From the NCBI GenBank assembly GCA_036004365.1, contig DASYRN010000045.1, positions 7,637-71,636 on the forward strand: 64,000 nt of DNA, written 5' to 3'. The notes below the pieces were generated by a model. That model was not told the DNA's origin. It worked only from the letters and a program-made list of their open reading frames with translations, and searched no databases. The DNA comes from Candidatus Binatia bacterium (GTDB lineage Bacteria; Desulfobacterota; Binatia; UBA9968). Of this stretch, positions 370 through 60,423 are shown piece by piece. Numbering within the stretch: the stretch's first letter is position 1; every line of letters begins with the position of its first letter. Position numbers and translations under genes: made by a program.

Positions 370-504
370 CGTAGTCACTGGAATCCCGCACTCTAAAGAC
401 TAACCTTAGCGTTGAATAGCTTTCAGCAGTCAGCCATCCGCAAGACAGATAAGGCCGGAGAACGAAGCTGAATACTGAGTGCTGAAGGTTGTTATCCAAA
501 AATC

Positions 505-10952: not shown

Positions 10953-10960
10953 TCTAGTAA

Positions 10961-11040
10961 GTCAGTTTCGAGTTTTGGATGCTTAATTCTTAGTTGTGTT
11001 AATCCTCAGCAACTCAAAACTTAAAACTCAAAACTAGAAA
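10961..11040. repeat. 7-nt-period degenerate arrays (xxGAGTT / CTCAAAA words) forming an imperfect inverted pair
   Basis: CT at 11013, 11020, 11027 and 11034 (CTCAAAA CTTAAAA CTCAAAA CTAGAAA). The left arm GTCAGTT TCGAGTT TTGGATG CTTAATT CTTAGTT is in opposite polarity. Confidence 0.8.
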
Positions 11041-11043
11041 TTC

Positions 11044-13928: not shown

Positions 13929-13935
13929 ACTACAA

Positions 13936-13998
13936 GTTTCGGGTTCCGAGTCCCGAGTTTCGAGTCAAACCCGAAACGCGGAGCCAGAAACTCGACAC
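13936..13998. repeat. 7-nt-period degenerate array (GTTTCGG GTTCCGA GTCCCGA GTTTCGA GTCAAAC CCGAAAC ...) containing self-complementary halves
   Basis: GT at 13936, 13943, 13950, 13957 and 13964. xAAAC units end at 13970, 13977, 13991 and 13998. GTTTCGGGTT and AACCCGAAAC are complementary. Confidence 0.8.
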
Positions 13999-14012
13999 TG
14001 ATCTTTGGTTGC

Positions 14013-14545: not shown

Positions 14546-14585
14546 CTTTCCGTTTTCATCTTTCCGTTTTTATCCTTTATCCGTT
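14546..14585. repeat. 7-nt-period array, pyrimidine-strand version of the GGATGAA family (CTTTCCG TTTTCAT CTTTCCG TTTTTAT CCTTTAT)
   Basis: Read directly. It shares a 12-nt core TTCATCTTTCCG with the reverse complement of 15729-15765. Confidence 0.75.
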
Positions 14586-15728: not shown

Positions 15729-15765
15729 AGGATGAAAGCGGAAATCGGAAAGATGAAATGAAAGG
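15729..15765. repeat. 7-nt-period array, purine-strand GGATGAA family (AGGATGA AAGCGGA AATCGGA AAGATGA AATGAAA)
   Basis: Read directly. It is the inverted partner of 14546-14585. Confidence 0.75.
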
Positions 15766-16611: not shown

Positions 16612-16722
16612 CTAAGCACTTATCACAACTAACGAACACGATCACAAATCACGATCCGCCTTTTGCTCTTTCGATTCTATCCTTTATCCTTCATCCTTTA
16701 TTCTTTTTCTTGGAGGTAACCC

Positions 16723-17166
16723 GTGTATTACTTTGCCTACGGCTCGAACATGAACTGGGCGCAGATGAAGCAACGCTGCTCGTCGGCCAGGTTCGTGTCG
16801 GTGGCATGCCTGAAGGACCGCCGCTTTGCAATCACGCGACGATCGCGCCGGCGCCTGTGCGGGACGGCGGATGTCCTTCCTGAACCCGGCAGCGAGGTCT
16901 TGGGAGTCGTCTACGAGATCGATGATTGTGATCTCGGCCTACTCGATGGCTTCGAAGATGGCTACGGCAGAGAAAAGATGTTCGTGGATCCTATCGGCGA
17001 CGGCGGCCGTCGGCTGGAGGCGTGGGTTTATATCGCTGAGAAAGAAACGTATCCCCCGCTTCCCAACGCGCTCTACAAACGGCTCATCGTCGAGGGCGCG
17101 AGGCACTGGAAGCTGCCGGAAGCGTACATCGATATGCTGGAGAAAATCGAGATAGCAATCGAGTAA
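16723..17166 (+). CDS. gamma-glutamylcyclotransferase (AIG2/GGACT-like) family protein
   Basis: 147 aa. The N-terminal YYFAYGSNMN motif is typical of the family. GTG start with RBS GGAGG. Confidence 0.75.
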   Translation: MYYFAYGSNMNWAQMKQRCSSARFVSVACLKDRRFAITRRSRRRLCGTADVLPEPGSEVLGVVYEIDDCDLGLLDGFEDGYGREKMFVDPIGDGGRRLEAWVYIAEKETYPPLPNALYKRLIVEGARHWKLPEAYIDMLEKIEIAIE

Positions 17167-17257
17167 AGAGTAGCGAGTAACGAGGAAAGAGTTTAGAGTA
17201 GGAGTTCAGTCCTGTTTGTTACCTCATTACTCAATACTTGCTCCTTGCCCCTTTTGT

Positions 17258-17893
17258 TCACCTCGTTCCAGATGCGCGCACCGTGATCTGCGAGGCGGAA
17301 AGCGAACCGTCGGCTTGAGTCCCCTGGATCAACACCTCGGCGCCGGGCTTGAGCCATCCCGCGTCCCCGAGCACCCGCTTCACGACGGGGATATCCGGTG
17401 GCACAAGGACCTTGATCTCTCCATCCTTGTACTTGAGGGTCAGCATCCGTCCTTTCACGTCCTGAACCGCCACGTCTTCTACGGTCTCGACGTTGGCGTT
17501 CGTCATCGTCAATCCGCTTTGCGGCGCCGAACTCAGCGGTTTATGGCCTTCTCCGGTGCCACGTTGGTCCTCCGAGAATATATGCAATCGGGTGGCGCGG
17601 AACGTACCGTCAGCTGCTTTCGCCGCGGTGACCTCCACGTACATACCGGGTGTGATCTCAGAAAACTTGATTGGAACTTCACCGCGGATAATCGTCTTAT
17701 CCGCTGTCTTAACTTGGACGTCTCCGTTGGGGGCGGCGACGATCAATTCTTGGCCTTTAACAGACGTGATTTTCCCTGCGACGCTGACTGCGCCTTCCGC
17801 TGGACCGACTTGAGCTCGGAGGAGTGAAACCCCTAGGCTAAGGAAAATGGTCGGAAACAGCCAAAGAAAAATCGAAAGTGCAACTTTCATCAT
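17258..17893 (-). CDS. secreted hypothetical protein with repeated beta-rich modules
   Basis: Start at ATGATG 17893/17890 after AAGGAGG, with signal peptide MMKVALSIFLWLFPTIFLSLGVSLLRAQ. The opposite-strand ORF 17216-17827 looks non-coding. Confidence 0.55.
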   Translation of the reverse strand: MMKVALSIFLWLFPTIFLSLGVSLLRAQVGPAEGAVSVAGKITSVKGQELIVAAPNGDVQVKTADKTIIRGEVPIKFSEITPGMYVEVTAAKAADGTFRATRLHIFSEDQRGTGEGHKPLSSAPQSGLTMTNANVETVEDVAVQDVKGRMLTLKYKDGEIKVLVPPDIPVVKRVLGDAGWLKPGAEVLIQGTQADGSLSASQITVRASGTR

Positions 17894-18122
17894 GCCCTCC
17901 TTCAAGCAGCCTGCCTTATCCTTCATCCTTTATCTCTTATCTTTTTTTGCCACGAACACGTATCACGAACACGTTTTTTTCCGTTTTCCGCTTTCATCTT
18001 TCATAATTCCACATTCTCCTTGACCGTTCCTATATGTTAGTCGCCGATCCGGCGCAAGGCATGCTTCCTGCTCCCGGTCTGCCTTGACAGTCGCAGGGTT
18101 TTGGCTTAGACCGGCCCGAAGG

Positions 18123-20058: not shown

Positions 20059-20155
20059 TCAGAAAGGATGAGGGCGAAAGGATAAGGGATGAAAGTAAGT
20101 TAAAATCGAAAAGCGTGTCGGTTGTAAAGCTGGGAACGGTAAAGACACGACTAAC

Positions 20156-24431: not shown

Positions 24432-24746
24432 CTACCAGCGGTCGCGCCTGCCACCTCCACCGCCACCCCTTCTATCCCCACCGAACCCTGACCGCTTCTC
24501 CTGAGGCCGCGCCTCATTGACAGTGAGATTGCGCCCGTCGAACTCGGTTCCGTTCAGAGCCTGGATCGCTTTCTGGGCCTCCGCGCCGGAGCTCATCTCG
24601 ACAAAACCAAAGCCCTTGGACCGGCCGGTGAATTTGTCGGTGATCACCCGGGCGGATTCGACGGTGCCGTGCGCCGAGAATAGTTCCTCGAGCTGCTTGT
24701 CGGTGGTCGCGTAGGACAATCCACCTACGTAGACTTTATTCGTCAT
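24432..24746 (-). CDS. RRM (RNP-1) RNA-binding protein with Gly/Arg-rich tail
   Basis: RNP2 VYVGGL, RNP1 KGFGFVEM and a C-terminal GGDRRGGGGGGRRDRW tail. ATG at 24746 after AAGGAGG. Confidence 0.85.
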   Translation of the reverse strand: MTNKVYVGGLSYATTDKQLEELFSAHGTVESARVITDKFTGRSKGFGFVEMSSGAEAQKAIQALNGTEFDGRNLTVNEARPQEKRSGFGGDRRGGGGGGRRDRW

Positions 24747-25307
24747 GTTCTCCTCCTTTAGAAAAATGTTAGTGTCTTTCACCCTGGAATCTGATTACCG
24801 CGGGAGCAGAACATGGGGTTGGAACCCAGCGCTGGCCGGATTATCCTCCAAGGTAATACTTCGCAAGGAAAGACTCCCCCCGAGCCTTAAACTTTTATCT
24901 GTCTCACTTTCAGAAGGCCCCATACTGAAGTGACTTTAGCTTGTCTTGTTTGCCCTCTCGGTGCAACGGAGCCGGGCGCGTCCTTTATCGTGCAGACGAC
25001 GGCTCGACACGAGCCCAAGTCACTATCATTCTAGGGTCGTCCGACGCAAGAGGTAGGCGGCGCGCAAGAAAACGTTGGAACAGAATGCGCAAAGAGGCCA
25101 AGAGCTTTTTGAGCGATATAAAGGGGTGTAGGAAGCCTCCGATAGTGCCTATTAATGTCGTGTTAATGGAAGGGGAGGTTGGGTCCTCCAGGAACCAAGC
25201 ATGCTTTATGAAACGCGATCGTATCCTTTCGATGGTGGTCTCTGGGTCCGACCAGCACCTAAGGCGCATCGACTCCGGAAGAATTATTTTAACCAACCGG
25301 CGACCGT

Positions 25308-25321
25308 TTGAGAATTCTCAA
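25308..25321. repeat. 14-bp perfect palindrome TTGAGAATTCTCAA, copy 1
   Basis: Read directly. Shared flanks are CG-TTT on the left and GA(A)G(G)TCAAAA on the right. Confidence 0.9.
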
Positions 25322-25613
25322 GAAGGTCAAAATGAACAAACGCGTCAAAGATGACGTTTTTGCAATTGCGAGAGTACGAAAATGTGGTTTGAAGCCTGTC
25401 TAGCGGATCTTCTTTTATAAACGCAGTGGATGTCTGTCAAGTAGGAAAAAGGAAAAAAGGGGAGGATTTCCGAAATATCCAAAAAGCCGCGATCGTGGTC
25501 GTGAAATGTGATCAGGCAGCAGGCCGCGTTGGCGGAATAGCAAGGCAACCGATTTAATCGAGGTTTAAAAAAAAAGCTTGACAGCCCGCGCGACCGCGAT
25601 ATACCTAGGTCCC

Positions 25614-26384: not shown

Positions 26385-26666
26385 TCAGTCGGATGCCTTT
26401 GGTTTCGGCGGCCCCGGATATCGGGTAGCAGCCTGGTTTGAAAAGCCATCTAATGCGGCGAGTTGACGCGCGAGGTCGAAGATGGTGTTCTCGATGGCCA
26501 TCCTGGAGGCCTCAATCTCATCGAGCGTTGATCGCGCTATCCCTACCGCTTCCACGAGCTTTACTCCCTCGGGCCGCCTTGCCAGTATCGTGAGACGGTA
26601 ATCGGCCTGGAAAACGCGCCAGTTGAGATAGACGCTTCGCACCTCAGCCTGTAGGTCTGAGGACAT
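26385..26666 (-). CDS. hypothetical protein, possibly the 3' part of a degraded gene
   Basis: 93-aa ORF. The reading frame stays open upstream of the ATG and neighbouring frames carry related-looking text (see findings). Confidence 0.35.
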   Translation of the reverse strand: MSSDLQAEVRSVYLNWRVFQADYRLTILARRPEGVKLVEAVGIARSTLDEIEASRMAIENTIFDLARQLAALDGFSNQAATRYPGPPKPKASD

Positions 26667-27091
26667 ATACCGGATCGAAACGGGAGCAGCGGGATCGTCC
26701 TCCAGGACGTAGAAAAGCGCCCGGCCGACGTGGTACTCCCCCCACTTAACTCCGGAGTATCGACACTTCCCACAGCTCGGCGAGAGCCGGATCGACCTGC
26801 ACCTTTACCCTTCGCTCTGGCGGAAGCTGGTAGCGCTGGTCGAAGAGGACCGTTTGGCCTCAGGCGCCAAGCCCGAGCGAAAGGAAAAACAAAGTGAAAA
26901 GGGAGGTCTTGCTCATGAGACGATCTGCAATTTCTTAGCATCTCTCCTAAAAGAGTAAAAGCCCCCGCAAGATAAAGGATGAAGGATAAGGGAAAGATGC
27001 TCATAAGACAGCGGACTTTCGGGGCCGTTCAAAGAATTTTGCTGGTGGCCACATCGAAGCTGTGCTATGTTGGTATGAAATTTTGAGAGCG

Positions 27092-27793: not shown

Positions 27794-27952
27794 GCAGGCC
27801 GATCTAAGAAAGGTACAAAGGCCCGTGCTCGTGATCGTGAAACGTCATCGTGACTAAAGACAAGGATGAAGTATAAGGGATGGAAGCAGAAAAAGAAGTG
27901 GACGTGATCGCGACTCGTGTGCGTGGAAACTTAGCAGACGCCTTGTGTGAGA

Positions 27953-28409: not shown

Positions 28410-28480
28410 GATGAGGGATGAATGATAAAAGATAACGGATGAAGGATCGAAGCGGAAAGAGGAAAAGAGAAAGAGAAAAA
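28410..28480. repeat. ten consecutive degenerate heptads (GATGAGG GATGAAT GATAAAA GATAACG GATGAAG GATCGAA GCGGAAA GAGGAAA ...)
   Basis: GAT at 28410, 28417, 28424, 28431, 28438 and 28445. G continues at 28452, 28459 and 28473. Confidence 0.9.
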
Positions 28481-28625
28481 AGACCTGATCGGATTCGTGC
28501 TCGTCATCGTAAAGGAACAGCCTTGACACGTTTTCGGCCTTCGAATAGGTTAGTTTTGGCCAAGTCGTTGATCCTCAAGAGACGTGCACGTGTTCGAGAT
28601 TCGTGTTCGTGTAAACTTGCACGTT

Positions 28626-28639
28626 TTGAGAATTCTCAA
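28626..28639. repeat. 14-bp perfect palindrome TTGAGAATTCTCAA, copy 2
   Basis: Read directly. Confidence 0.9.
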
Positions 28640-28870
28640 AGCTTCGAAAAGCGCCACGATCGTCTTCGTGGAACGTGATCGTGAACAAGAACTGATGCTG
28701 TTATCACTTTTACGATTGCGCAAGTGCGCAAATGAGAAAATGTCCCAAGGCGCGAGCCTTGAGGTATGAGGACAAAAGGTGAGGATGATTCAGGAGGAAC
28801 GATAGCGGAACAAGGGAAAACGGCGGGGAGAAGAGGCTGGAGAGACCGGATAATTTTTTCTACGAGGAAG

Positions 28871-30321: not shown

Positions 30322-30676
30322 AATCCTCCTCCTCGAGATTTTGGTGCAAGGGCTTTTGCCCGAGACAGCTGACGCGATGCAAGCGATATACCAAGGGCCA
30401 GAATAATTAAACCGTGGATTGTTAAAGGGATTGGAAGTTCGGCTCTTCTGACACGGTCCCTAATTGTTATGGAAAGGCCTAAATTGTACCGTCAAGTAAC
30501 TTGATCGTTGTCTAAGAGGAATGGGATCCTCGTCTTGATCTTGGATTCTTGAGCCAGGTCACCCGGTCTGCCATGTGTATCTTGGCGATCCAAGAAAGGG
30601 ACGAGGCAAGAGGTGATAGGCGATAGTTTTTAGTCGCTCTCGCAACTATTGTATATTATAACATGGCTCTCGCGTT

Positions 30677-30690
30677 TTGAGAATTCAAAA
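30677..30690. repeat. half-degenerate copy of the palindrome (TTGAGAATTCAAAA), copy 3
   Basis: Read directly. The left flank CGCGTTT is conserved. Confidence 0.7.
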
Positions 30691-30746
30691 ATGTAAAAAC
30701 GAGTTAATGATGGAATCTTGCCCTATACGATTGTAACATTGGATAG

Positions 30747-36117: not shown

Positions 36118-36153
36118 CGGTCTACAAGGAGCTCAGAAGAGCACTTTCACCGT

Positions 36154-36167
36154 TTGAGAATTCTCAA
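36154..36167. repeat. 14-bp perfect palindrome TTGAGAATTCTCAA, copy 4
   Basis: Read directly. Lies between the convergent YciI and pdaD stops. Confidence 0.9.
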
Positions 36168-36200
36168 GAGTCAAAAGGATTTGGGAACAAGAAAAGGACT

Positions 36201-40229: not shown

Positions 40230-40444
40230 GACGAGATGGGTAAAAAGGTAAGAGCTGGGAAGAAATTACGCGATAAGTAAGAGTAGAGACTGCAAATTAT
40301 AGCTGGAGGATTGCTCCTTTGGGCGTTTCCTCTAACGTGGGCTTTTCACGTTTCGACTATTTTCGAAATGTCGAAACGATGAGCGGCGCTTGTTCGGACA
40401 AGCGATTGACTCATTTGATGCGGCTGTGATAGCGCTCGAAAGCC

Positions 40445-44383: not shown

Positions 44384-44592
44384 GGCGAATTTTCCCTTCT
44401 TTTAGAAAGGATGAAGTATGAAATCGGAAGGATGAAGTGACAATGGCGCATTGACAGATGTTTTTTTATCCCTTAGCCTTCATCCTTTAGTTCTCCTGTA
44501 TGTTTGCCACGAAAACCGACTCTGATGCAACTCCTTATATGTCATATGTCCCGTGCGCCTAGAGGGAGCCGGCGTCTGACGTGCATCCCATC

Positions 44593-44991: not shown

Positions 44992-45175
44992 CGTCGTTCG
45001 CGGTCCTCCTTGTCGTCGAAGTGGCGCCTAGTGTAACAGGTAATGCTAACCAACAGTCAAGCACTTACAGGCTGTTGAAAGCGCCGCGAGTCAGTGGTTC
45101 CCACAAGAGGGTAAATCCAAGCAAGGAGCGCGTACTAAGGGATGAAGGATGAAATGCCTAATCAGTTCATTGCCT

Positions 45176-46579
45176 TTAAGGTTTATCGTTCGGGACGAGG
45201 AGTCGGGCGAGCTTCCCGGCGTCTTCGAGCCTGTCTAGACTTTCAATCGTATCTTGGAGTTCGTCGATACGGGACGGCGAAAGGACTCGCGAGGCAAGCA
45301 GGCGAAATTTTTCGCTGACCTCGACGCGTGTCATGGGATGCTTATCACTTCCCTTGGCGTGAAGCACTTTGGCCCCGTAGCTCTTCCCGTCTCTCGTCTC
45401 GACCTCTAGAATCACGCCGTGGCGCCCTTCGTCTCCTAGGGCCTCGAGCTCGGTATCTTCAACCACCTCGATCTTTTTCGTCGTATTCAGGACGTCAGCC
45501 CTGTTTATGGATTTCTCCGTCACCTGATCGACGAAGAAGTCCCGGTCGTGGAGCAACACCGCAACACAATAAAGAAGATTCATTTGCGCCGTGGTCAGGC
45601 TGTTCGGCACATAAGGCCAACCGACATGAAGCTTGGTGGCGCGGGTTGTGCGGATGGTGATTTTTTCCGCGTTCTCCGCGCTTACGTCGGGGTGCTCACG
45701 GAGAATTTTCTTGAGCGCATCGATCGAAGTGTGATTGCTGCCGCAGCAAGGATAAGGTTTGAAGCCGACGTTCAGGGCCTCGAACCGTTCGCCAAGATCT
45801 CGCGTCAGGTGGGATAGGTTGGGATTGTCGCAGAAGGTCGAGCAGAAGCCTCCATAAGGCGCTTCGAGAATATCCTCGATTCCGGTAAATCCCTTAGCGG
45901 CGAGCAGTGCTCCGTACACACCTGCCTGTGATGCCCTACCAGGGTGCATGCGCTTTACCATCGAAGCTTGTTGGGCAGCCATAAGGCCCGCGGCCTGAGT
46001 GCCAGCGATTCCCAAGGCGTGGAGTGTCTCTGACGGATCAAGTCCAAGCATTTTTGCCGCCGCGGCTCCAGCAGCGAAGGTTCCTGAGGTGGCCGTAGGG
46101 TGGAAGCCCCGGCGCAACTGGGAAGCGCCCCCTGTCATGGCCACGCGGCAGCCTGCCTCATAACCAGCGATTACAGCCGTAAGGAATCTCTTGCCGTCTG
46201 TCGCGCCGTCGTAGCGTACCAGGGCATCTGCCGCAGGTATCGCTTCGGCGCCCGGGTGGATGACGCCGACGCGGTGAAGATCGTCCATTTCAAAGCTGTG
46301 GATCAAGGTACCATTGGCCAACGGCGCGCTCGTGCTGGGAACCTCTGCGCCATCGCCCCAGAGAAGAGCCCCTTTGCCCGCGCCTAGCTCCTTTGCAAAG
46401 CCTGTGATGATTTTTCCCCAAGGAAGGGTCGAGCCGAAAAGGGCGCATCCGAGAGAATCGAGTAGGCAGAGCTTGACGTGTGAGATGACCTCTCCGGGAA
46501 TATCACTGTACGAAAGCGACGATACAAACTGCGCGAGAGCGCGGGTGGGCGAGGTCTCTGGGCTTTGACTCGTTAACAT
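45176..46579 (-). CDS. MmgE/PrpD family protein (2-methylcitrate dehydratase-like)
   Basis: 467 aa. LLDSLGCALFGS...AEAIPAADAL...HPTATSGTFAAGAAAAKMLGL. Confidence 0.85.
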   Translation of the reverse strand: MLTSQSPETSPTRALAQFVSSLSYSDIPGEVISHVKLCLLDSLGCALFGSTLPWGKIITGFAKELGAGKGALLWGDGAEVPSTSAPLANGTLIHSFEMDDLHRVGVIHPGAEAIPAADALVRYDGATDGKRFLTAVIAGYEAGCRVAMTGGASQLRRGFHPTATSGTFAAGAAAAKMLGLDPSETLHALGIAGTQAAGLMAAQQASMVKRMHPGRASQAGVYGALLAAKGFTGIEDILEAPYGGFCSTFCDNPNLSHLTRDLGERFEALNVGFKPYPCCGSNHTSIDALKKILREHPDVSAENAEKITIRTTRATKLHVGWPYVPNSLTTAQMNLLYCVAVLLHDRDFFVDQVTEKSINRADVLNTTKKIEVVEDTELEALGDEGRHGVILEVETRDGKSYGAKVLHAKGSDKHPMTRVEVSEKFRLLASRVLSPSRIDELQDTIESLDRLEDAGKLARLLVPNDKP

Positions 46580-46664
46580 GAGGTTCGATCAACCGGATAG
46601 ATTTTGCCCATCCTCTTATTGTATACGTGGTTCTGTCAAGGCCCAGGAACACGAGGGAGGAAAA

Positions 46665-47735
46665 ATGCGCCTGCAAAAGTGGTCTCTGGTTGGGGTGATC
46701 CTGGCGATCTTCGCTTCTCCCCATCGCAGCTATGCACAGTCGGCCGGAGAGATCCTCAAGCGCTACGAAGGGCTGAGCCCAAAGCAGCGCCAGGAAAAGC
46801 TCGTTGAGGGCGCGCGGAAGGAAGCAGCAGTCGTGATTTACAGTTTTACCGCAGTCGACCAGCTCACGCCATTACTTGAAGAATTCTACAAGAAATACCC
46901 GTTTGTTAAACCAGAGCACTACAGGGCCAACGCCTCAGGCGTTTTTAATAAGTTTATCACCGAGGCGCGCGCCGGCCGGACCCTGGCCGATGTGCTCGAT
47001 ATCTCGGCGGGCGAAGCCTATACCCTACGCCAGATGGGACTCGTCGATCCTTATTCTTCTCCCTTTAGAGAAGGGATTCCAAAAGATTTTCTGGACGAGC
47101 GAGGGTATTGGGCCGCGCATTACCACTTCGTAGTCGCCTTGGGCGCTAATACCAGAGCCATCAGCGCCTCGGAGGCACCGAGAAGCTACGGAGAGCTACT
47201 CAACCCGAAATGGAAAGGGCGCTTCTCGCTGGATCCCGCTGATCAAGATCTTTTTGGTGCGCTGCTGATGTATTGGGGGAAAGAGAAGACGCTTGACTAT
47301 TTTAAAAATCTCGCAAAACTCGAACCCCGGATGGTCACCGGCCACACGCAACAAGCCAATCTCGTTGGGTCGGGCGAGATTCACATGGCTCCGTGGCTTT
47401 ACGGCTATCGTCCGCTTCAATTAAAGGACGAGGGAGCTCCGGTTGAGGTCTTTCTCTTTGATCCTGTTCTCACCAACCCCGCTTATCTTTTGCTGGCGAA
47501 GAATTCTCCTCACGCTCACGCGGCCGCGCTCCTGATCGATTGGGCTCTTTCCGCTGACGGAGGGATGAAGTTTTTTGCCGAGAAATTCGGTCGAACGCCT
47601 ACTCGGCCGGGACTCAAGGAGAGGTTTCCACAACTTCGGGTGGAGAAATACCTCGTCGTCAAACCCGAAGTCGTCGGGCCAAACTTCAAAGAGTTCACCA
47701 AGGTCTATAACGAGATTTTTGCGATTGGTAAGTAG
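46665..47735 (+). CDS. periplasmic solute-binding protein (SBP family 1, iron(III)/polyamine-like)
   Basis: ATG at 46665 after GAGGGAGG, with a signal peptide. Paralogous to 50047-51171 (KKYPFVKPEHYRA.. vs KKYPFVKVMVWRS..). Confidence 0.75.
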   Translation: MRLQKWSLVGVILAIFASPHRSYAQSAGEILKRYEGLSPKQRQEKLVEGARKEAAVVIYSFTAVDQLTPLLEEFYKKYPFVKPEHYRANASGVFNKFITEARAGRTLADVLDISAGEAYTLRQMGLVDPYSSPFREGIPKDFLDERGYWAAHYHFVVALGANTRAISASEAPRSYGELLNPKWKGRFSLDPADQDLFGALLMYWGKEKTLDYFKNLAKLEPRMVTGHTQQANLVGSGEIHMAPWLYGYRPLQLKDEGAPVEVFLFDPVLTNPAYLLLAKNSPHAHAAALLIDWALSADGGMKFFAEKFGRTPTRPGLKERFPQLRVEKYLVVKPEVVGPNFKEFTKVYNEIFAIGK

Positions 47736-47741
47736 GGAGGT

Positions 47742-48677
47742 TTATTTTTTCCCGCGAAAACGGAACAGTTCGACGAGCTTTCGCCGAACCACCTCCTCGC
47801 CGCCCGGCAGGATGTCAAACTTTGTTGTGTTATCCATCTTTTGCATTATTTTCCGGCCTTCGTCATCTTGATGCATCGAAAGCAAGGTCTCCTGAAGACG
47901 CTTGGCCACCTCCGGATGCAAACCCCTGCGAATAGAAACGAGATGGCGTGGAACCGTCTCCGTTTCGGCCAGGATAGCGATCTCGGCCCTTGCTTTCTCG
48001 TCAAGCGTGGCGTAGTCGTCATCGCTAAACGCACCAGCCATCACCTTCTTTGAGAGAAGGAGGTCAGCGATATTTTTGTGTGTAGAGGCAAAGATGTAGC
48101 CAATCTCCTTAGGAGAAACCTTGGCTTCGAGCCCGGGTTTTTCGGTAAGTCTGAATCCCTTCCTTAGAAGGAAGACCTTTGGCAAAAGATAGGCTGAAGT
48201 AGACCCGGGATCCTCGAAGGCGATGATCTTACCCTGTAGGTCTTCAAGCCGGGCTATGCCGCTCTCTTTGCTCGTGGCAAGGATGCCTCGATATTCGCCC
48301 TTCCCCCCCTTCCAACGCCTGAGCAACAATCTCGCGGACCCTTGCCTGTTGATGAGATAGGTCGGATAGGGGCTTTCCATATAAAAATCAACCCGCTTCT
48401 CCTCAAGCAGCTTTGCGAGTTGTAGCGCTGTCGGAGCCACAACAACCGTTCCTTTGATCTCGGAAGTGGAGGAGAGTTTTCGCGCGACATAACCCACAAA
48501 ATCGCGGAAATGCTCCTCGATCTCCTTCTGATGTATTTGAGAGACGAGTCCTAAAGAGATCGTTTTAACTGTGCCGGTCTCCGGCGCCTGTCCGGCAGCT
48601 TCAAGCTCAGGGGTTAGGAGAGAAACAAGAGCGGCAACGGCAAATATGAGGGAGGCATGATGTGTGTGTCTCTTCAT
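47742..48677 (-). CDS. PhnD-like (phosphonate/phosphite-type) solute-binding protein
   Basis: 311 aa with a signal peptide. ISLGLVSQ....EEHFRDFVGYVARKL resembles PhnD-type SBPs. Confidence 0.65.
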   Translation of the reverse strand: MKRHTHHASLIFAVAALVSLLTPELEAAGQAPETGTVKTISLGLVSQIHQKEIEEHFRDFVGYVARKLSSTSEIKGTVVVAPTALQLAKLLEEKRVDFYMESPYPTYLINRQGSARLLLRRWKGGKGEYRGILATSKESGIARLEDLQGKIIAFEDPGSTSAYLLPKVFLLRKGFRLTEKPGLEAKVSPKEIGYIFASTHKNIADLLLSKKVMAGAFSDDDYATLDEKARAEIAILAETETVPRHLVSIRRGLHPEVAKRLQETLLSMHQDDEGRKIMQKMDNTTKFDILPGGEEVVRRKLVELFRFRGKK

Positions 48678-48965
48678 GACGACCTGTCACAGCCGGGAAT
48701 TTGCCGCGGGAGAACCCGAGAGCAATGGCGAACGACAAAGCCCACGCTACGTATATATAAACGAGGCAAACTTGGCAAGAATGAAAACAGATTCGGAAGC
48801 ACCTGGTGTCGCAAATCCTCGCCAAACGCCGAAACGACTCCGGGGAGGCCGGCTGTTTCACACCGGTGTATGAGGTCAGTGGACAGGCACGGAGAGGTTG
48901 TAATATAAGCAGTCTTGTCGTGGCTGCCGGGCGATTGCGGCGACACCAAAATCGGAGGTGAGATC

Positions 48966-50027
48966 ATGTGGTACAAAGCGAAGGCGCTCGATTTATTCGG
49001 AGTGGCGTTGGGATTCGGCTGCTTAGTGATTTTTCCCAAAGACGCTTTCTCTCAGGCCGGCTACTACCAGGGGAAGACCATCACGATTGTTCGGGGCGGG
49101 GAACCGGGGGGCTCAGGGGATATGCAGGCCAGGGCGTTGATACCGTTCCTCAAAAAACATATTCCCGGGAATCCGAATATTATCGTGGAGAACATGCCCG
49201 GCGCCGCCGGGATGAAAGCGGTCAACCATATTTATACGGCGAAGCCCGATGGGCTCACGATCACCGCCGTCGGCTCCGGCCTCGCCGCAGGCCCGATCCT
49301 CGGCTTGCCGGGAGTAAAATACGACATCGATAAGCTGATTTATCTGGGGTCGACGGAGCATGGCGATCCCTATGTCTTTTTAAGCCGGAAAGAAGCCGGT
49401 TTCGACAGTCTGGAAAAGCTGCGTGCTGCGTCGGGGATCAGGCTCGGTGCGCAAACCGTGGGCCACGCGGTTTATATTAGCGGGCGTATCTTCGCGCATC
49501 TTCTGGGTCTCAAGGATCCCAAGGTCGTTGTCGGCTTTGGAGGACCAGAGCTCGACATCGCTTTGGCCCGAGGCGAGGTTGACGCCAGAGCGAACAGCGC
49601 GGATACGGTGGTGCGCAGAAACGCCGATGCGCTGGAAAAAGGTCAGTTCAACATTCACGCCACCATCACGATTCCAAAAGGGAAGTTTCACCCGCGCTTC
49701 GCGAACGTCCCCGATGTGGAGACGCTTGCTAAAAACGACAAAGAGCGCCAACTGGTAAATCTGTTCCGCGCGTTTCTCTATCCGCGTTGGCCTTACGTGC
49801 TGCCGCCAGGCACCCCCGCGGAAATCGTCAAGGTCCTGCGCGAAGGGATGGTCAAGGCCTTTAAGGACCCGGGTTTTCACCAGGAATTTAAAAAACTCAT
49901 GGCGAGCGATCCATCCCCTCTCACCGGAGAAGAGGTGGAGACATCCATTAGAGAGCTGCCGCGCGATCCCGAGGTCATTGGACTATATAAAAAGATGGCC
50001 GAGCATGGACCGCTGCCGCCGCGCTAG
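48966..50027 (+). CDS. Bug/TctC-family tripartite tricarboxylate transporter solute-binding protein
   Basis: YYQGKTITIVRGGEPGGSGDMQARALIPFLKKHIPGNPNIIVENMPGAAGMKAVNHIY. ATG at 48966 after GGAGG. Confidence 0.8.
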   Translation: MWYKAKALDLFGVALGFGCLVIFPKDAFSQAGYYQGKTITIVRGGEPGGSGDMQARALIPFLKKHIPGNPNIIVENMPGAAGMKAVNHIYTAKPDGLTITAVGSGLAAGPILGLPGVKYDIDKLIYLGSTEHGDPYVFLSRKEAGFDSLEKLRAASGIRLGAQTVGHAVYISGRIFAHLLGLKDPKVVVGFGGPELDIALARGEVDARANSADTVVRRNADALEKGQFNIHATITIPKGKFHPRFANVPDVETLAKNDKERQLVNLFRAFLYPRWPYVLPPGTPAEIVKVLREGMVKAFKDPGFHQEFKKLMASDPSPLTGEEVETSIRELPRDPEVIGLYKKMAEHGPLPPR

Positions 50028-50046
50028 GGTGGGCATTTCCTTTCAT

Positions 50047-51171
50047 CTATCTCCTGCTGATGAAGAGCTGCCGCATTAGAGCTTCCCACTCAGCAAATCT
50101 CTTCTCATACTCTTCGAGAGAGTATTTGGCCTCGAGGTAGGTTTTCTTGAATTTCGTCTCCAACGAGCCGATGTCGCTCCGCGGCGAGTTCAGGCCGCCT
50201 TTCATCGCAACTTGCTGTCCCTCTCTTGAATGGATGTAGTCAAGGAAAAGAAGCGCAGCATGGGGATGGGGAACCTTGTTGAGCAACCCGGACTTGCCGA
50301 CGCTCGCAATCACCGGCTCTAAAGGACGCCACTCGACGGGAGCTCCCTTCTGCCTGGCCGTGGTGATATTGGAGTCGAAGATTGTGGGAGAAAGCGGCAC
50401 CTCGCCAGAGGCCACGAGACCTGCCAGCGCCGCTCCCGACATGTTTTGGACGTTCACCTGCTGTTGGCTCATCTTTTCGAGAAACTCGCGGCCCATCCCC
50501 TCCAGCAGATTTCCCACCCACTGGACCCCCGTAGTCGTGCCGGCAATGGACATTTTTCCCTTCCATTTGGGATCGAGGAGATCTTTCAGGCTCCGAGGCG
50601 CCTCGGCCGGCGGCACGAGCTTGGTGTTGAATCCCAGACTGATATAGATCTCTCGATTCGCCCAATAAACAACGCCGTTTTTTCCTTTCGTCTTCACTTC
50701 GTCGCCATAAAAAGCCATCTCAGGCGAATAGTGTTCTTGGAGCATGTCGTTTTTATGCAACAGCGCCATGTATTCAGGGCTCGTCTCCAAGACGTCGGCG
50801 ATGAGGCGGCCTGAGGCATATTCCTCTGTGACACGCTTGAGCAATTCCTTAGAGTCGCTGCGCCATACCATGACCTTAACGAACGGGTATTTCTTTTCGA
50901 ATGCCTGGGGCAACGCGCTCGCCATCCACGTGTTCGATGTGTAAAACGTCACTTGTCCTTCTTTCTTGGCCCCTTCGATCAAGAGCGGCTCCCTGTCGCG
51001 GCCTTGATAAAGGGCGATCTCGGCAAGCGCTTTGGGCTTACTGGCGGTCGCTGCAAGGCCTGGGGTTGGCAGCGACAGGAACCCGGCCGTCAGCAGAGAG
51101 CCTGCCACTATGAAAAAGCGCGAAGATTGGAAGCGGGCAAACCGGCAAAGCATAAGAAAGCATCCTCCCAC
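50047..51171 (-). CDS. periplasmic solute-binding protein (SBP family 1), paralogue of 46665-47735
   Basis: 374 aa with a signal-like N-terminus (start may be 51153). Confidence 0.75.
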   Translation of the reverse strand: MGGCFLMLCRFARFQSSRFFIVAGSLLTAGFLSLPTPGLAATASKPKALAEIALYQGRDREPLLIEGAKKEGQVTFYTSNTWMASALPQAFEKKYPFVKVMVWRSDSKELLKRVTEEYASGRLIADVLETSPEYMALLHKNDMLQEHYSPEMAFYGDEVKTKGKNGVVYWANREIYISLGFNTKLVPPAEAPRSLKDLLDPKWKGKMSIAGTTTGVQWVGNLLEGMGREFLEKMSQQQVNVQNMSGAALAGLVASGEVPLSPTIFDSNITTARQKGAPVEWRPLEPVIASVGKSGLLNKVPHPHAALLFLDYIHSREGQQVAMKGGLNSPRSDIGSLETKFKKTYLEAKYSLEEYEKRFAEWEALMRQLFISRR

Positions 51172-51197
51172 TATTTTGTACTTTAGAGGCTATGAAT

Positions 51198-51845
51198 CTA
51201 AAATTTCTTCCACGGGTTGATCCCCAACTCTACATGCTTTCGGTATAACATGGCTACATAGATAAAATCGAAAATGAATATGGACACATAAAGAAAGTTC
51301 AGAAGAACCGAGGCGGGAAAGCGAAGAAAAAACAGTATCGACGGCAATAAAGTTCCGAGCATCTTAAATAAGGCTATATAAATCGACTGGCCACTCACGT
51401 CTCTCCGATTCAGCAGCATCGATATAAACAAAACAGACATCATAAGATTTTGCCCGAAGGCTGCGTACTTGCCGTCCCAGTCTTTGAACTCATAGGTTAT
51501 GGCCAGGATGGCGCCAAAACTTAGGATTAGCGTTACAAGGAAAGTAAGATAGAAAAAGCGCGCCGGCAGTATTTGATTCAAGGCCTTCCCTCCGAAGCGG
51601 AGAGTTTGAAAGACGATGATCGTATCAAAGGCAAACCAAGCGATATTGATATAATTCTGAGGAGGCTCGTGCGGGTGCATGAAGGAAAATATAAATTCCC
51701 AGGAGATATTCGCCGATAGAGCCGCTACCGGCATCCCATAAGTCTTGTCCTGGAATCCCACTCGGAGGATCAAGATATAGGCCAAGGTCCAGAAGACTCC
51801 CGATCCGATCTGCAAGCTCAAGCTTATCTCAGGAGGAACCGCCAT
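51198..51845 (-). CDS. multi-pass membrane protein resembling PaxB/Pyr4-type transmembrane terpene cyclases (tentative)
   Basis: 215 aa with about 6-7 TM helices. FWTLAYILILRVGFQDKTYGMPVAALSANISWEFIFSF resembles W..NY......F.DETYGM....L..NI.WE of fungal PaxB as I recall it. Confidence 0.5.
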   Translation of the reverse strand: MAVPPEISLSLQIGSGVFWTLAYILILRVGFQDKTYGMPVAALSANISWEFIFSFMHPHEPPQNYINIAWFAFDTIIVFQTLRFGGKALNQILPARFFYLTFLVTLILSFGAILAITYEFKDWDGKYAAFGQNLMMSVLFISMLLNRRDVSGQSIYIALFKMLGTLLPSILFFLRFPASVLLNFLYVSIFIFDFIYVAMLYRKHVELGINPWKKF

Positions 51846-52091
51846 AACATACCGCTTTTGCGGATGCTAACTTACTCTCCCCGTTTTTAGCAATGACGGC
51901 CAGCATGAAAGGTAGAGCGTTGGTATCCGTAAGCCGCTTCATCTAAGTCATTTCGACATTTCGGGAATTCTCGAAGCATGGAAGCGTGGCAGAAGCTCCC
52001 GCTGGAATTGAATGTGCGGGCGGCAGCGGCGGGTGTCGTCAACTATGTCGGTGCAAAACGATGGCGAAGATGAGAGAATGCGCCGGGAACG

Positions 52092-53183
52092 ATGCGCATC
52101 GTCGTGCATGTCGATATGGACGCGTTCTACGCCGCCGTGGAGGAGCGGTACAATCCTCAATTGCGCGGCCTTCCTGTGGTCGTAGGAGCCGACCCTAAAG
52201 AAGGAAGAGGACGAGGCGTGGTGACGACGGCCAACTACACGGCGCGCAGGTTCGGCATCCACTCGGCCCTGCCGATCTCACGCGCGTGGCGGCTTGCAGA
52301 AGCCGCTCGGAAGCGAGGCGAGCCCGCAGCGGTCTTCATCCGGACGAACTTCCAGCTGTATGGGGAGGTTTCGGCCCGCATCATGCAGATTCTCGAAAGC
52401 CGGGCCGATTCTTTTGAAGAGGCGAGCATCGATGAGGCCTATCTCGAAATCTCATCGCTTGGGAGCTTTGAGGTCGCAGTAGGGCACATGAGTGCGTTAA
52501 AGACCGAGATCCGGGACAAGGAGGAGCTTAGCTGCTCCGTCGGCATCGGTCCAAACAAGCTTATCGCCAAAATTGCCTCGGGCCACAACAAGCCTGACGG
52601 CCTCACCGTTGTGAGGCCGGAGCAGGTCCAGGAGTTCCTCGATCCTCTCCCTATCCGCGTGATTCCCGGCATCGGGCCCAAGGGCGAGGCCTTCCTCCAC
52701 GAGCAAAAGATTCAGACCGTAAAAGAGCTGCGGGAAATTCCCGGCTCAAAGCTCATGGACTGGTTTGGAAAATGGGGTCATAGTCTTTTTGAAAAGGCTC
52801 GGGGCGTCGATGACTCACCGGTTTCAAACGAGTGGACGAGAAAGTCGGCGGGCGAGCAGGAAACATTCGATCAGGACACCCGAAGCCTTTCTTTTGTTAC
52901 CGAGCGGCTTTATGCGATCGCCGAGCGGGTCATCGGCAAACTCAGGGAAAAAGAGTTCGCCGGTTTCCGCACTGTCACCTTGACGGTGCGCTTTTCCGGT
53001 TTTGAAACTAAGAACCGTTCCCGCAGCTTCAAGAATGGAATCGTGCTCGACAACGATGGAGTGGCGCTCCAACTCCTCAAGCAGGAGACCCTAAAACTCG
53101 TACTTCCTTTTTTCGACTCGCGGGAAAACCCGCGGGGAAAGGCGATCCGGCTCATCGGCCTCCGCCTGGAAAAACTTTTCTGA
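52092..53183 (+). CDS. dinB: DNA polymerase IV
   Basis: 363 aa. IVVHVDMDAFYAAVEERYNPQLRGLPVVVG and SIDEAYLE. Confidence 0.9.
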   Translation: MRIVVHVDMDAFYAAVEERYNPQLRGLPVVVGADPKEGRGRGVVTTANYTARRFGIHSALPISRAWRLAEAARKRGEPAAVFIRTNFQLYGEVSARIMQILESRADSFEEASIDEAYLEISSLGSFEVAVGHMSALKTEIRDKEELSCSVGIGPNKLIAKIASGHNKPDGLTVVRPEQVQEFLDPLPIRVIPGIGPKGEAFLHEQKIQTVKELREIPGSKLMDWFGKWGHSLFEKARGVDDSPVSNEWTRKSAGEQETFDQDTRSLSFVTERLYAIAERVIGKLREKEFAGFRTVTLTVRFSGFETKNRSRSFKNGIVLDNDGVALQLLKQETLKLVLPFFDSRENPRGKAIRLIGLRLEKLF

Positions 53184-53504
53184 GATGATCCTCCACGTTT
53201 CATCGATTCAACTTTAGCCGCTGCGATGGATAGTACATTTTAGGCCTTTGCCGGCTAAGAATTGCGGCCCTATCGTCCCACAAGTCTCTTCAAATTTCCT
53301 GAAGAATTAACGGCTTAGTTACCTGCTGGCCGTGGTATATGCCTTGCATAATGGTAAACAGTAAGAGCCCTCGACAGCGACGGAACCAGGTCGAACAGGA
53401 TCACCAACATCGAGAGACGGAAGGCTAAGATGGCAATAGCAGCATTAAGACCATTCATCGGAAGTTTACCGGCATCGGTATCGAAGTGTGATGAAGGAGG
53501 CACC

Positions 53505-54440: not shown

Positions 54441-54584
54441 AACAAGTCATTCTACGTCGCTGCTGCGAGATATTCTTTGTTGATACTTCTTCTTTCCAGA
54501 CACTTTTCCTCTCCAGGATTGTAAAGATATTCAGGCTGGACCAAGGCGCACGGCGGACTCTGCTGTCCAGAGTTTTCGATGGTG

Positions 54585-55511: not shown

Positions 55512-55547
55512 GGCACCACTACTCCTGAACTTCTTTGTTCGTAAGAT

Positions 55548-59710: not shown

Positions 59711-59732
59711 AGGGTTTTTCTTCCATGCCCGA

Positions 59733-60362: not shown

Positions 60363-60423
60363 TGCGGTTATTCCATGCCGATTCGGGCGAAAGGTCGCCG
60401 GAAAACCGACACCGAACACTTGC

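What the first reader, a model, noticed from the sequence alone, without database searches (positions are those of the whole stretch)
16633..18005. Dispersed two-module spacer family: GGATGAA/GGATAAG arrays plus CACGAAC/CGTGATC arrays
GGATGAA-type arrays seen on the purine strand: 15729-15765, 20062-20096, 26971-26996, 27862-27886, 28410-28480, 44406-44437 and 45136-45156. On the complementary strand: 14546-14585, 16678-16703, 17914-17941, 17981-18005 and 44467-44490. CACGAAC-type arrays: 16633-16657, 17951-17973, 27824-27854, 27901-27926, 28491-28512, 28581-28612 and 28655-28690. The two modules co-occur in the spacers at 16.6 kb, 17.9 kb, 27.8 kb and 28.4 kb. In the first two they flank the convergent gene pair 16723-17893 in mirrored order. 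That is at least 12 copies of one word family in 64 kb, always intergenic.
Basis: seen in the sequence. Interest (0 to 1): 0.55.

Follow-up and report, generated by a model that had tools for sequence, protein, structure and literature searches.

The report
Heptamer repeat arrays between genes
The flagged words are real, degenerate 7-base (GGATGAA) and 6-base (CGTGAT) tandem repeats that sit only between genes of an uncultured Binatia bacterium; this kind of repeat is already known, its function is unknown, and the same GGATGAA word recurs in many phyla with a strict strand orientation.

Summary
Tandem GGATRAR dimers occur 16 times against 0.68 expected, and all lie in spacers. CGTGNNCGTG occurs 12 times against 1.5 expected. 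Period-7 self-similarity is specific to non-coding DNA.

The two "modules" are not one composite element. They are two of at least five short-period word families in these spacers; the others are GAGTNNN, CAGCNNT and TGCAAAA.

All belong to the known class of intergenic heptanucleotide repeats (STRR/LSSR type). A relative at about 97% identity keeps the arrays. Relatives at about 88-90% identity lack or replace them. The arrays at 16.6 and 17.9 kb do not fold.

GGATGAA arrays occur in many phyla and in viral contigs, about 10 times more often than same-composition control words. Inverted pairs are almost always purine arm, loop, pyrimidine arm (79 to 2). Other heptamer words follow the same G-rich-arm-first rule (36 to 4). 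This extends a polarity already published for G-rich heptamers.

No function was shown. Tests for canonical terminators and for selection on sense-strand RNA hairpins were negative. My best reading is slippage-born, rapidly replaced repeats filtered by orientation at gene boundaries. This is a new member of a known kind, of moderate interest.

The parts
14546..14585 (-). GGATGAA-family array, read on the minus strand. The + strand reads CTTTCCG/TTTTCAT/TTTATCC (the Y form). It lies between ilvN and the GSDH gene.
   Evidence: conserved in L274
15729..15765 (+). GGATGAA-family array (R form). It begins 1 nt after the GSDH stop codon. Together with 14546-14585 it brackets the GSDH gene.
   Evidence: Absent in L277, which has only an AAGGA seed plus a small hairpin there. 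Duplex of the two bracketing arrays: dG -33 kcal/mol, z -4.2.
16633..16657 (-). CGTGAT-family hexamer array (the + strand reads CACGAT/CACAAAT)
   Evidence: one substitution in L274
16678..16706 (-). GGATGAA-family array (Y form on the + strand), ending 16 nt before the start of the GGACT gene
   Evidence: the spacer does not fold (z +0.5)
17914..17941 (-). GGATGAA-family array in the divergent spacer between the DUF5666 and FMN_dh genes
   Evidence: no fold (z +0.2)
17951..17973 (-). CGTGTT/CGTGAT hexamer array flanked by T7 runs on the + strand
17981..18005 (-). Variant of the GGATGAA family (CCGTTTT/CCGCTTT/CATCTTT on the + strand). L009 carries the same layout: B array, T-run, then a CCGTTTTC-type array.
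20062..20096 (+). GGATGAA-family array (R form) beginning 3 nt after a stop codon. With 17914-18005 it brackets the FMN_dh operon.
25443..25467 (+). AGGAAAA/AGGGGAGGAT purine array.
25490..25513 (+). CGATCGTGGTCGTGAAATGTGATC hexamer array, the second half of the missed composite
26971..26996 (+). GGATGAA-family array (R form) in a divergent spacer. The overlapping ORF is spurious.
27824..27854 (+). CGTGCT/CGTGAT hexamer array
27862..27886 (+). GGATGAA-family array (R form)
27901..27926 (+). CGTGAT/CGTGTG hexamer array
28410..28480 (+). Longest GGATGAA-family array, grading into GAAAGAG/A-rich units
28491..28512 (+). TTCGTG/CTCGTC hexamer array
28581..28612 (+). CGTGCA/CGTGTT hexamer array
28655..28690 (+). 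Hexamer array of mixed orientation, CACGAT.../CGTGAT/CGTGAA
44406..44490 (.). The only local inverted pair of the GGATGAA family in the window: R arm 44406-44437, a 29-nt loop, then Y arm 44467-44490
   Evidence: the fold is weak (z -1.4)
45136..45156 (+). GGATGAA-family array. With 44467-44490 it brackets the HbpS-like gene.
17160..17250 (.). Inverted heptamer arrays of another family (GAGTAAA/GAGTAGC, loop, TTACTCA) between the convergent genes
   Evidence: fold z -2.05; about 21 nt of indel relative to L274
13935..13992 (.). Hairpin of the GAGTTTC/GAGTCCC family inserted between ilvB and ilvN. Relatives have a 9-12 nt spacer here.
   Evidence: a 6-nt indel in strain variant L006
10953..11038 (.). 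Hairpin GAGTTTT, loop, AAAACTC between rseP and tsaD. L009 and L278 carry CAGCNAT-type arrays in the orthologous spacer; in L009 they form a hairpin.
   Evidence: fold z -3.28
415..493 (.). Hairpin of the CAGCNNT family
   Evidence: fold z -2.19

Best explanation
The flagged words are degenerate short tandem repeat arrays. One family has a 7-nt unit (GGATGAA/GGATAAG/GCGGAAA). The other has a 6-nt unit (CGTGAT/CGTGAA). Both belong to the known class of intergenic heptanucleotide simple-sequence repeats (cyanobacterial STRR, Mrazek's LSSR).

The host is an uncultured Candidatus Binatia bacterium.

Inferred mechanism:
1. Arrays arise at gene boundaries from short seeds by slipped-strand expansion and by copying between arms.
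2. They then decay by point mutation.
3. They are replaced within roughly 10% sequence divergence.
4. They persist mainly in one orientation, with the G/purine-rich strand reading 5' to 3' away from the adjacent gene end. Spacers therefore read R...Y and genes are bracketed Y-gene-R.

The two 'modules' are independent word families. They share spacers and strand because both obey this polarity.

In this window most copies are single, decayed arms with no local fold. I infer they have little sequence-specific function here. Where both arms are present, the DNA or RNA can form a long stem-loop at a gene boundary.

Shown: reality of the arrays, non-coding restriction, class features, turnover, phyletic breadth and polarity. 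Inferred: origin by slippage, selection as the cause of the polarity, and weak function.
For: - Above chance and confined to spacers.
- Several word families in the same spacers.
- Turnover in relative L274 (coding identity 96.5-97.5%). It keeps the A and B arrays compared with only point changes and no unit-number change. The GAGTAAA hairpin differs by about 21 nt.
- Turnover in relative L277 (87-90%). It lacks the ilvB-ilvN hairpin and the post-GSDH array, where only an AAGGA seed plus a small hairpin is present. It has a different Y array after ilvN.
- A 6-nt indel in a near-identical strain.
- Other Binatia contigs carry period-7 arrays of other words, sometimes in the same orthologous spacer.
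- Perfect GGATGAA x3 is found in 95 IMG/VR stretches. Five same-composition control words give 16, 9, 3, 4 and 16.
- Polarity of inverted pairs: R-loop-Y to Y-loop-R is 40:0 in genome loci and 39:2 in viral loci.
- It is 19:0 in convergent spacers.
- Forty-three pairs of other heptamer words have a 5' arm with G>C in 36 against 4.
- At gene scale the order flips to Y...R, 31 against 5.
- Rehm et al. 2015 (PMC4692102) reported the same ORF-relative polarity, rapid length and sequence variation between close species, and no identified function for GGGAATC/GGGGAYT repeats.
Against: - Pure local slippage does not explain why one word recurs at 13 sites in 64 kb. It also does not explain why GGATGAA is about 10 times commoner than same-composition words across phyla.
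- The polarity is too strict to be neutral (79:2). I could not show what selects it.
- A 72-nt two-armed hairpin appeared in a spacer that is 9-12 nt in three outgroups. That looks more like an insertion than in-situ growth.
- In the window itself the polarity rule is only moderately obeyed. By my reading, about 6 arrays fit, 3 do not and 2 are neutral.
- Gene calls in the comparative loci were ORF-based and noisy.
Confidence: 0.55

Rival explanations
1. The arrays are functional RNA-level gene-boundary elements. R-loop-Y stem-loops in spacers, or pairing of a 5' Y array with a 3' R array of the same transcript, would act as terminators or insulators, RNase III processing sites, exonuclease barriers or devices for translational coupling.
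For: - Paired arrays elsewhere form very long stems, median 34.5 pairs and dG -49 kcal/mol.
- The R arm starts within 10 nt of stop codons (72 against 16).
- The Y arm ends within 40 nt of start codons (71 against 36).
- Different lineages put different hairpin arrays into the same rseP-tsaD spacer.
- In L277 a small conventional hairpin occupies the place of the window's post-GSDH array.
- The arrays bracketing GSDH are strongly complementary (dG -33, z -4.2).
Against: - Stems are not followed by U-rich tails, with a mean of 2.5 T in 8 nt. The window shows no excess of terminator-like sites.
- In tandem spacers the sense transcript has fewer G-U pairs than the antisense (59 against 114). It is less stable in 24 of 38 cases. 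This is the opposite of what selection on the sense RNA predicts.
- Loops are long and variable, 5-167 nt.
- Arms carry independent variants, such as TTCCGCC in Y arms.
- Most arrays in this window are single arms that do not fold.
Confidence: 0.2
2. Each arm is a single-strand recognition site.
- The purine form (AAGGAUGA)n carries an SD-like AAGGA, an AUG and a UGA every 7 nt. It also resembles the CsrA-type GGA motif.
- The pyrimidine form (UUCAUCC)n is G-free and C-rich. It could serve as an unstructured S1-binding leader or as a Rho loading (rut-like) site.

RNA entering a gene from either side would then be policed, and RNA leaving it would not.
For: - The polarity holds for single arms as well as pairs, and in all three spacer types.
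- The best predictor across words is G>C and purine excess in the outward-reading strand (36:4). Stop codons are a poor predictor (11 against 8).
- The word composition can be read directly from the sequence.
- MacGregor 2015 (PMC4679880) proposed S1, Csp or CsrA binding for TAACTGA repeats placed just upstream of start codons.
Against: - No binding or expression data exist.
- The arrays are shorter (14-40 nt) than typical rut sites (my own knowledge).
- As far as I know, CsrA is absent from cyanobacteria and Bacteroidota, which carry the arrays. I did not test this.
- In the window the DUF5666 gene has the purine form directly upstream of its RBS.
- The polarity is shared by many unrelated words. 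That argues for a compositional rule rather than a sequence-specific one.
Confidence: 0.12
3. The arrays are the arms of small mobile palindromic elements of the REP/REPIN or MITE type, spread by a transposase encoded elsewhere in the genome.
For: - The same word occurs at many loci.
- Each family has a fixed arm order.
- A 72-nt hairpin was inserted de novo immediately after the ilvB stop codon.
- The arrays are present in viral contigs.
Against: - No transposase or RAYT gene was found among the proteins scanned in the window. Only part of the gene set was scanned.
- No target-site duplication or conserved terminal tetranucleotide is visible at the ilvB-ilvN insertion.
- Copies differ in unit number and sequence rather than being copies of one master.
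- Solitary arms are common.
- An in-situ AAGGA seed exists at the orthologous site in L277.
Confidence: 0.08
4. The arrays are repair scars. Purine-rich repeats would be added or copied onto both 3' ends of breaks in spacers, in a telomere-like or templated end-extension, before rejoining. That would automatically give G-rich strands converging on the spacer centre.
For: It is the only model here in which the R-loop-Y polarity, its independence of spacer type, non-mirror arms and variable 'loops' (the old spacer) all follow from how the arrays are generated. This is inference only.
Against: - I know of no enzyme or precedent for this in bacteria.
- Many different words would each need a template.
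- Nothing in the window bears on it.
Confidence: 0.05

Closest known systems
Heptanucleotide long simple sequence repeats (LSSR, Mrazek et al. 2007, as summarised in PMC4679880) and cyanobacterial STRR repeats (Mazel et al. 1990, from my own knowledge)
   Same: - 7-nt units in tandem.
- Strongly intergenic.
- Several word families per genome.
- Sporadic phyletic distribution.
- Slippage proposed as the origin.
- No established function.
   Different: - The arrays here are short (2-10 units) and degenerate.
- The lineage (Binatia) and the word GGATGAA are not, as far as I could find, described.
- A co-resident 6-nt family is present.
GGGAATC / GGGGA(C/T)T repeats of Xanthomonas and Nostoc (Rehm et al. 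2015, PMC4692102)
   Same: - Heptamer units, over-represented in non-coding DNA.
- The G-rich strand lies close to its 5' neighbouring ORF whatever that ORF's orientation.
- Inverted copies exist.
- Length and sequence vary between close relatives.
- Not linked to particular gene functions.
   Different: - GGATGAA has no G-tracts, so it cannot form a G-quadruplex.
- The polarity therefore does not depend on G4.
- No preference for four units was seen.
TAACTGA direct repeats of marine Beggiatoaceae, cyanobacteria and Bacteroidetes (MacGregor 2015, PMC4679880)
   Same: - One heptamer shared by distant phyla.
- Short arrays of 2-6 copies next to start codons.
- Contains stop codons.
- A post-transcriptional role has been proposed but not shown.
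   Different: - TAACTGA arrays are almost all direct repeats, with a single inverted set.
- They lie upstream of start codons in 'forward' orientation.
- GGATGAA arrays also follow stop codons and often occur as inverted pairs.
Geobacter metallireducens heptanucleotide elements GGACCGG and MTYCTGA (Aklujkar et al. 2009, PMC2700814)
   Same: Four or five tandem heptamers dispersed at 15-49 sites and annotated as putative regulatory elements. A GGGACCG inverted pair also turned up in my loci (L210).
   Different: Different words. Some Geobacter copies lie inside genes.
REP / BIME / REPIN extragenic palindromes
   Same: Dispersed intergenic elements able to form hairpins at gene boundaries.
   Different: - REPs are 20-40 nt units with a conserved GTAG or CGTC head, per the abstract of PMC3733652.
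- REPs are linked to RAYT transposases (my own knowledge).
- Here the arms are tandem heptamers of variable number.
- Many copies are single arms.
- No RAYT was seen.
CsrB/RsmZ-type GGA-repeat sponge RNAs (from my own knowledge)
   Same: A repeated heptamer-like CAGGAUG / AGGAUGA motif.
   Different: - A resemblance only.
- The arrays here are dispersed in spacers rather than being one sRNA gene.
- Rfam found nothing.
- CsrA was not examined.

Membership tests
Intergenic heptanucleotide SSR (STRR/LSSR class) | Head-to-tail repeats with a 7-nt unit, more than chance gives | tested here: met
   TRF rows with period 7. Period-7 self-similarity gives 7 segments against 0 in shuffles, and other periods give at most 1. 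Tandem dimers: 16 against 0.68 expected.
Intergenic heptanucleotide SSR (STRR/LSSR class) | Restricted to non-coding DNA | tested here: met
   16 of 16 A dimers and 7 of 7 strict period-7 segments lie in spacers.
Intergenic heptanucleotide SSR (STRR/LSSR class) | The same word at many dispersed loci, with several word families per genome | tested here: met
   13 A arrays and 8 B arrays, plus GAGTNNN, CAGCNNT and TGCAAAA arrays.
Intergenic heptanucleotide SSR (STRR/LSSR class) | Unit number or sequence varies between related genomes | tested here: met
   A 6-nt indel in L006. About 21 nt of indel in L274, and arrays absent or replaced in L277, L007 and L009.
G-rich heptamer repeats with ORF-relative polarity (Rehm 2015) | The G-rich strand has its 5' side next to the nearest ORF | tested here: met
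   In other genomes: inverted pairs 79:2, convergent spacers 19:0, other words 36:4. In the window itself the rule is only partly met, about 6 fitting and 3 not (my reading).
G-rich heptamer repeats with ORF-relative polarity (Rehm 2015) | G-tracts able to form a G-quadruplex | tested here: not met
   The GGATGAA unit has no run of three or more G (seen directly in the sequence).
Phase-variation (contingency) SSR | Perfect repeats whose copy number differs among near-identical strains and switches a gene on or off | tested here: not met
   The units are degenerate. A and B arrays are identical in six assemblies and have the same unit number in L274. Neighbouring genes are housekeeping.
Canonical intrinsic terminator | A short GC-rich stem followed by a U-tract | tested here: not met
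   No excess of terminator-like sites, and none at the arrays. Paired arrays elsewhere have stems of about 35 bp and tails with a mean of 2.5 T in 8 nt.
REP/REPIN | A 20-40 nt palindromic unit with a conserved GTAG/CGTC end | tested here: not met
   The arrays are tandem 6-7 nt units and no such head is visible.
REP/REPIN | A cognate RAYT transposase in the genome | not testable with these tools
   Only 64 kb of the genome is available. None was found among the scanned proteins.
MITE | Terminal inverted repeats with a target-site duplication | tested here: not met
   No duplication flanks the ilvB-ilvN insertion when it is aligned with the empty sites.
CRISPR array | Repeats of 24-48 nt separated by unique spacers of similar length | tested here: not met
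   The units are 6-7 nt and contiguous.
Known structured RNA family (Rfam) | A match at gathering score | tested here: not met
   0 matches in the window. No tRNA or tmRNA.

The most novel reading that the evidence does not exclude
The arrays in this window are a local sample of a general, cross-phylum gene-boundary rule. Short heptamer arrays bracket genes as Y-gene-R and spacers as R-loop-Y. The G/purine-rich strand always reads outward from the gene, whatever the word, the spacer type or the host, and phage-like contigs follow the rule too. A few words such as GGATGAA are strongly preferred.

If this reflects a mechanism, it would be an unrecognised layer of bacterial genome organisation. 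Candidate mechanisms are Rho-type policing of RNA that enters genes, pairing of the 5' and 3' ends of transcripts, or a directional process that adds repeats at breaks in spacers.
Probability: 0.15. Interest if true: 0.8.

Novelty: new member of a known kind. Interest (0 to 1): 0.42.

Why it matters
For this window it matters little. The arrays are ordinary non-coding repeats next to housekeeping genes. Their main practical effect is to create spurious FILHPSS-type ORF calls.

The wider interest lies in three results.
- One heptamer word is shared by many phyla and by viral contigs, at about 10 times the frequency of same-composition words.
- The arm order of inverted heptamer arrays is almost invariant. 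It holds in convergent spacers and for unrelated words.
- This shows that the polarity published for G4-forming repeats does not depend on G-quadruplexes.

Together these give a sharp, testable constraint on what heptanucleotide repeats do or how they form. That question has been open since STRRs were described (1990, from my own knowledge).

Tried and rejected
- **Rfam and tRNA scans.** Nothing found.
- **Promoter and terminator consensus scans around the arrays.** No excess, and no site tied to an array.
- **Local folding of the spacers at 16.6 and 17.9 kb.** No structure (z +0.5 and +0.2).
- **Canonical terminator model for paired arrays.** Rejected, because there are no U-rich tails.
- **Selection on the sense-strand RNA hairpin.** Not supported. 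G-U pairs number 59 in sense against 114 in antisense transcripts.
- **Stop codons in all three frames as the cause of the polarity.** Rejected. Among other words, stops occur only in the 5' arm in 11 pairs and only in the 3' arm in 8. G>C skew gives 36:4.
- **"No purine array before a start codon" as the sole cause.** Rejected, because convergent spacers show 19:0.
- **Association with PF05635 (Avd-like or 23S IVS protein) genes.** Seen once, in L009. Not seen in the loops of GGATGAA pairs.
- **Literature search for GGATGAA/TTCATCC repeats.** It returned only unrelated papers in which the two strings occur incidentally.
- **Mrazek 2007.** The paper is not held in the library.
- **My first array detectors.** They were too strict or too permissive.
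- **The single metagenome scan.** Not used. A two-module pattern would have given hundreds of chance hits without organism names.
Full report
**Observation**

- GGATRARGGATRA with at most one mismatch occurs 16 times, against 0.68 expected from dinucleotide-preserving shuffles. No shuffle reaches 16.
- All 16 matches lie in spacers. None lies in the roughly 48 kb that a rough self-trained gene call marks as coding.
- The second module has a 6-nt unit (CGTGAT/CGTGAA). CGTGNNCGTG occurs 12 times against 1.46 expected, and 10 of the 12 are non-coding.
- A word-independent detector finds period-7 self-similarity only in non-coding DNA: 7 of 7 segments, against none in shuffles. Other periods give at most one segment.
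- Six independent metagenome assemblies reproduce the region at 99.8-100% identity, so the arrays are not assembly artefacts.
- The ORF that overlaps array 26971-26996 translates to nonsense starting MSIFPLSFILYL, so it is a spurious call.

**Context**

The window carries housekeeping genes. They include rho, rpsB-tsf-pyrH-frr, dxr, rseP, tsaD, ilvBN, a glucose/sorbosone dehydrogenase, an FMN-dependent dehydrogenase, pqiA and mlaD. The best named relatives of IlvN are MAGs of Candidatus Binatia/Binatota. Rfam and ARAGORN find nothing.

**What else is in the spacers**

The two modules are not alone.
- GAGTNNN arrays occur 8 times against 0.26 expected.
- Arrays of the CAGCNNT, AACTCAA and TTTGCAT types are also present.
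- Several of these form inverted pairs that fold better than shuffles: 10953-11043 (z -3.3), 405-495 (z -2.2) and 17160-17257 (z -2.05).
- The focal A/B spacers at 16.6 and 17.9 kb do not fold at all (z +0.5 and +0.2).

In four of the five composites the order on the purine strand is the same: GGATGAA-type array, an A-rich run, then a (W)TCGTG array. The spacer at 27.8 kb also carries a CGTG array upstream of its purine array. The copies on either side of the gene pair 16723-17893 share strand orientation, so they are not mirror images of each other.

**Relatives**

| Locus | Coding identity to window | State of the arrays |
|---|---|---|
| L274 | 96.5-97.5% | The A and B arrays compared are kept with point changes only, no unit-number change, and spacer identity of 95-97%. 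The GAGTAAA hairpin differs by about 21 nt. |
| L277 | 87-90% | ilvB-ilvN spacer is 9 nt instead of 84. After GSDH there is only an AAGGA seed and a small hairpin (CGTCCCTTGGGACG). After ilvN there is a different pyrimidine array (TTCATCCCTCATCC). |
| L006 (near-identical strain) | 99.8% overall identity to the window | 6-nt indel in the ilvB-ilvN array |
| L007, L009, L278-L280 (more distant Binatia contigs) | not measured | Period-7 arrays of other words, sometimes in the same orthologous spacer (rseP-tsaD). CGTG/CACG arrays are frequent only in L009. |

The arrays are therefore stable over about 3% divergence and turned over by about 10%. They are not hypermutable contingency loci.

**Beyond the lineage**

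These fall in Planctomycetota, Acidobacteriota, Cyanobacteriota, Chloroflexota, Bacteroidota, Verrucomicrobiota, Armatimonadota, Nitrospirota and other phyla. They include cultured Herpetosiphon, Mongoliitalea and Leptolyngbya.

In IMG/VR, perfect (GGATGAA)x3 occurs in 95 stretches. Five control words of the same composition give 16, 9, 3, 4 and 16. The word is therefore preferred about tenfold.

CGTG arrays are not associated with GGATGAA arrays outside Binatia. Database proteins with FILHPSS strings exist. All are short, unnamed 'hypothetical proteins' with no Pfam domain, and most are singletons.

**Polarity**

| Test | Result |
|---|---|
| Inverted GGATGAA pairs within 200 nt, genome loci | purine arm-loop-pyrimidine arm (R-loop-Y) 40, reverse 0 |
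| Same test, viral loci | 39 to 2 |
| By spacer type | convergent 19:0, divergent 9:0, tandem 39:2 |
| Order at gene-scale distances (200-3000 nt) | Y...R 31, R...Y 5 |
| Inverted pairs of other heptamer words (43 pairs) | 5' arm G>C in 36, G<C in 4 |
| Stop codons as predictor among those words | only in 5' arm 11, only in 3' arm 8 |

At gene scale, genes are therefore bracketed Y-gene-R. Stop codons do not explain the rule.

Rehm et al. 2015 described the same ORF-relative placement for G4-forming GGGAATC/GGGGAYT repeats and found no function. The present data show that the rule does not need G-quadruplexes.

In the window itself the rule is only moderately obeyed. GSDH, the FMN_dh operon and the HbpS-like gene are bracketed Y...R by complementary arrays. 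The GSDH pair has dG -33 kcal/mol and z -4.2.

**Mechanism tests**

- Paired arrays elsewhere make stems of about 35 bp (median dG -49 kcal/mol). They lack U-rich tails, so they are not canonical terminators.
- Many abut start codons, which leaves no room for a promoter.
- In tandem spacers the sense transcript has fewer G-U pairs than the antisense (59 against 114) and is less stable in 24 of 38 cases. Selection on a sense-strand RNA hairpin is therefore not supported.
- No mobile-element gene was found among the window proteins scanned, which were only part of the gene set.

**Conclusion**

The finding is a real and statistically solid sample of intergenic short-period repeats of the STRR/LSSR kind, in a Binatia genome. 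The 'two-module family' is better described as two co-oriented word families among several.

I favour slippage-born, fast-turnover arrays that survive in one orientation at gene boundaries and have weak or no sequence-specific function in this window (confidence about 0.55).

Functional readings remain open. They are boundary stem-loops, single-strand recognition by ribosome, CsrA or Rho, REP-like mobility, and repair scars. The strict polarity and the cross-phylum preference for GGATGAA are the parts that no explanation tested here accounts for.

Published precedents were read. I found no description of the GGATGAA family itself.

Noticed in passing
window 25305-25324, 28623-28642, 30674-30692, 36151-36170: A dispersed palindrome, TTTGAGAATTCTCAAA, at four intergenic sites. 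There are 7 strand-matches against 0.01 expected. One copy sits among the CGTG arrays at 28.6 kb. An XRE-type HTH ORF starts near 25615. This may be an operator family.
   Followed up: partly
L009 16069-16614: A PF05635 gene (23S rRNA intervening-sequence protein, Avd-like four-helix bundle) is bracketed by a GAGTA-type array upstream and the complementary TACTC-type array downstream. No such genes were found in the loops of GGATGAA pairs.
   Followed up: partly
window 13929-14012 compared with L277, L007, L009 and L278: ilvB and ilvN are 9-12 nt apart in relatives, probably translationally coupled, but 84 nt apart here. A roughly 72-nt hairpin of GAGTTTC-type units lies directly after the ilvB stop codon. 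A near-identical strain (L006) differs by 6 nt inside it.
   Followed up: yes
window 24432-24782 (-): A gene for a small RRM_1 RNA-binding protein (E 1.8e-25). This bacterial family is common in cyanobacteria. Its link to the repeats, if any, was not examined.
   Followed up: no
window 26385-26930 (-): An apparently frameshifted or pseudogenised ORF. A signal-peptide-like start (MSKTSLFTLFFLSLGLGA) runs into a stop, and a plausible protein continues in other frames. I read this by eye from the sequence.
   Followed up: no
window 40363-40379 and 51948-51964; L009 near 16.85 and 18.6 kb: TTTCGAC-type palindromic motifs (TCATTTCGACRTTTCGA). L009 carries two near-identical copies of about 45 nt. 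The two window matches are not significant on their own (2 against 0.48 expected).
   Followed up: partly
genome and viral loci, for example L014, L021, L022, L029, L039, L101, L124, L139: The pyrimidine arms of GGATGAA hairpins in several different loci carry the same variant unit, TTCCGCC (as in ...TTCATCCTTCCGCCTTCATCC), with no matching change in the purine arm. The window's GCGGAAA/TCGGAAA units are the same variant. No explanation was found.
   Followed up: no
window 46000-64000: The last 18 kb of the window has spacers of similar size but almost no short-period arrays. The arrays cluster at 0-30 kb and 44-45 kb, and all those between 25 and 29 kb have the purine strand on the + strand.
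   Followed up: no
L210 5937-6006 (IMG/VR contig): An inverted pair of GGGACCG arrays. This is the same heptanucleotide described as a 49-copy element in Geobacter metallireducens (PMC2700814).
   Followed up: no
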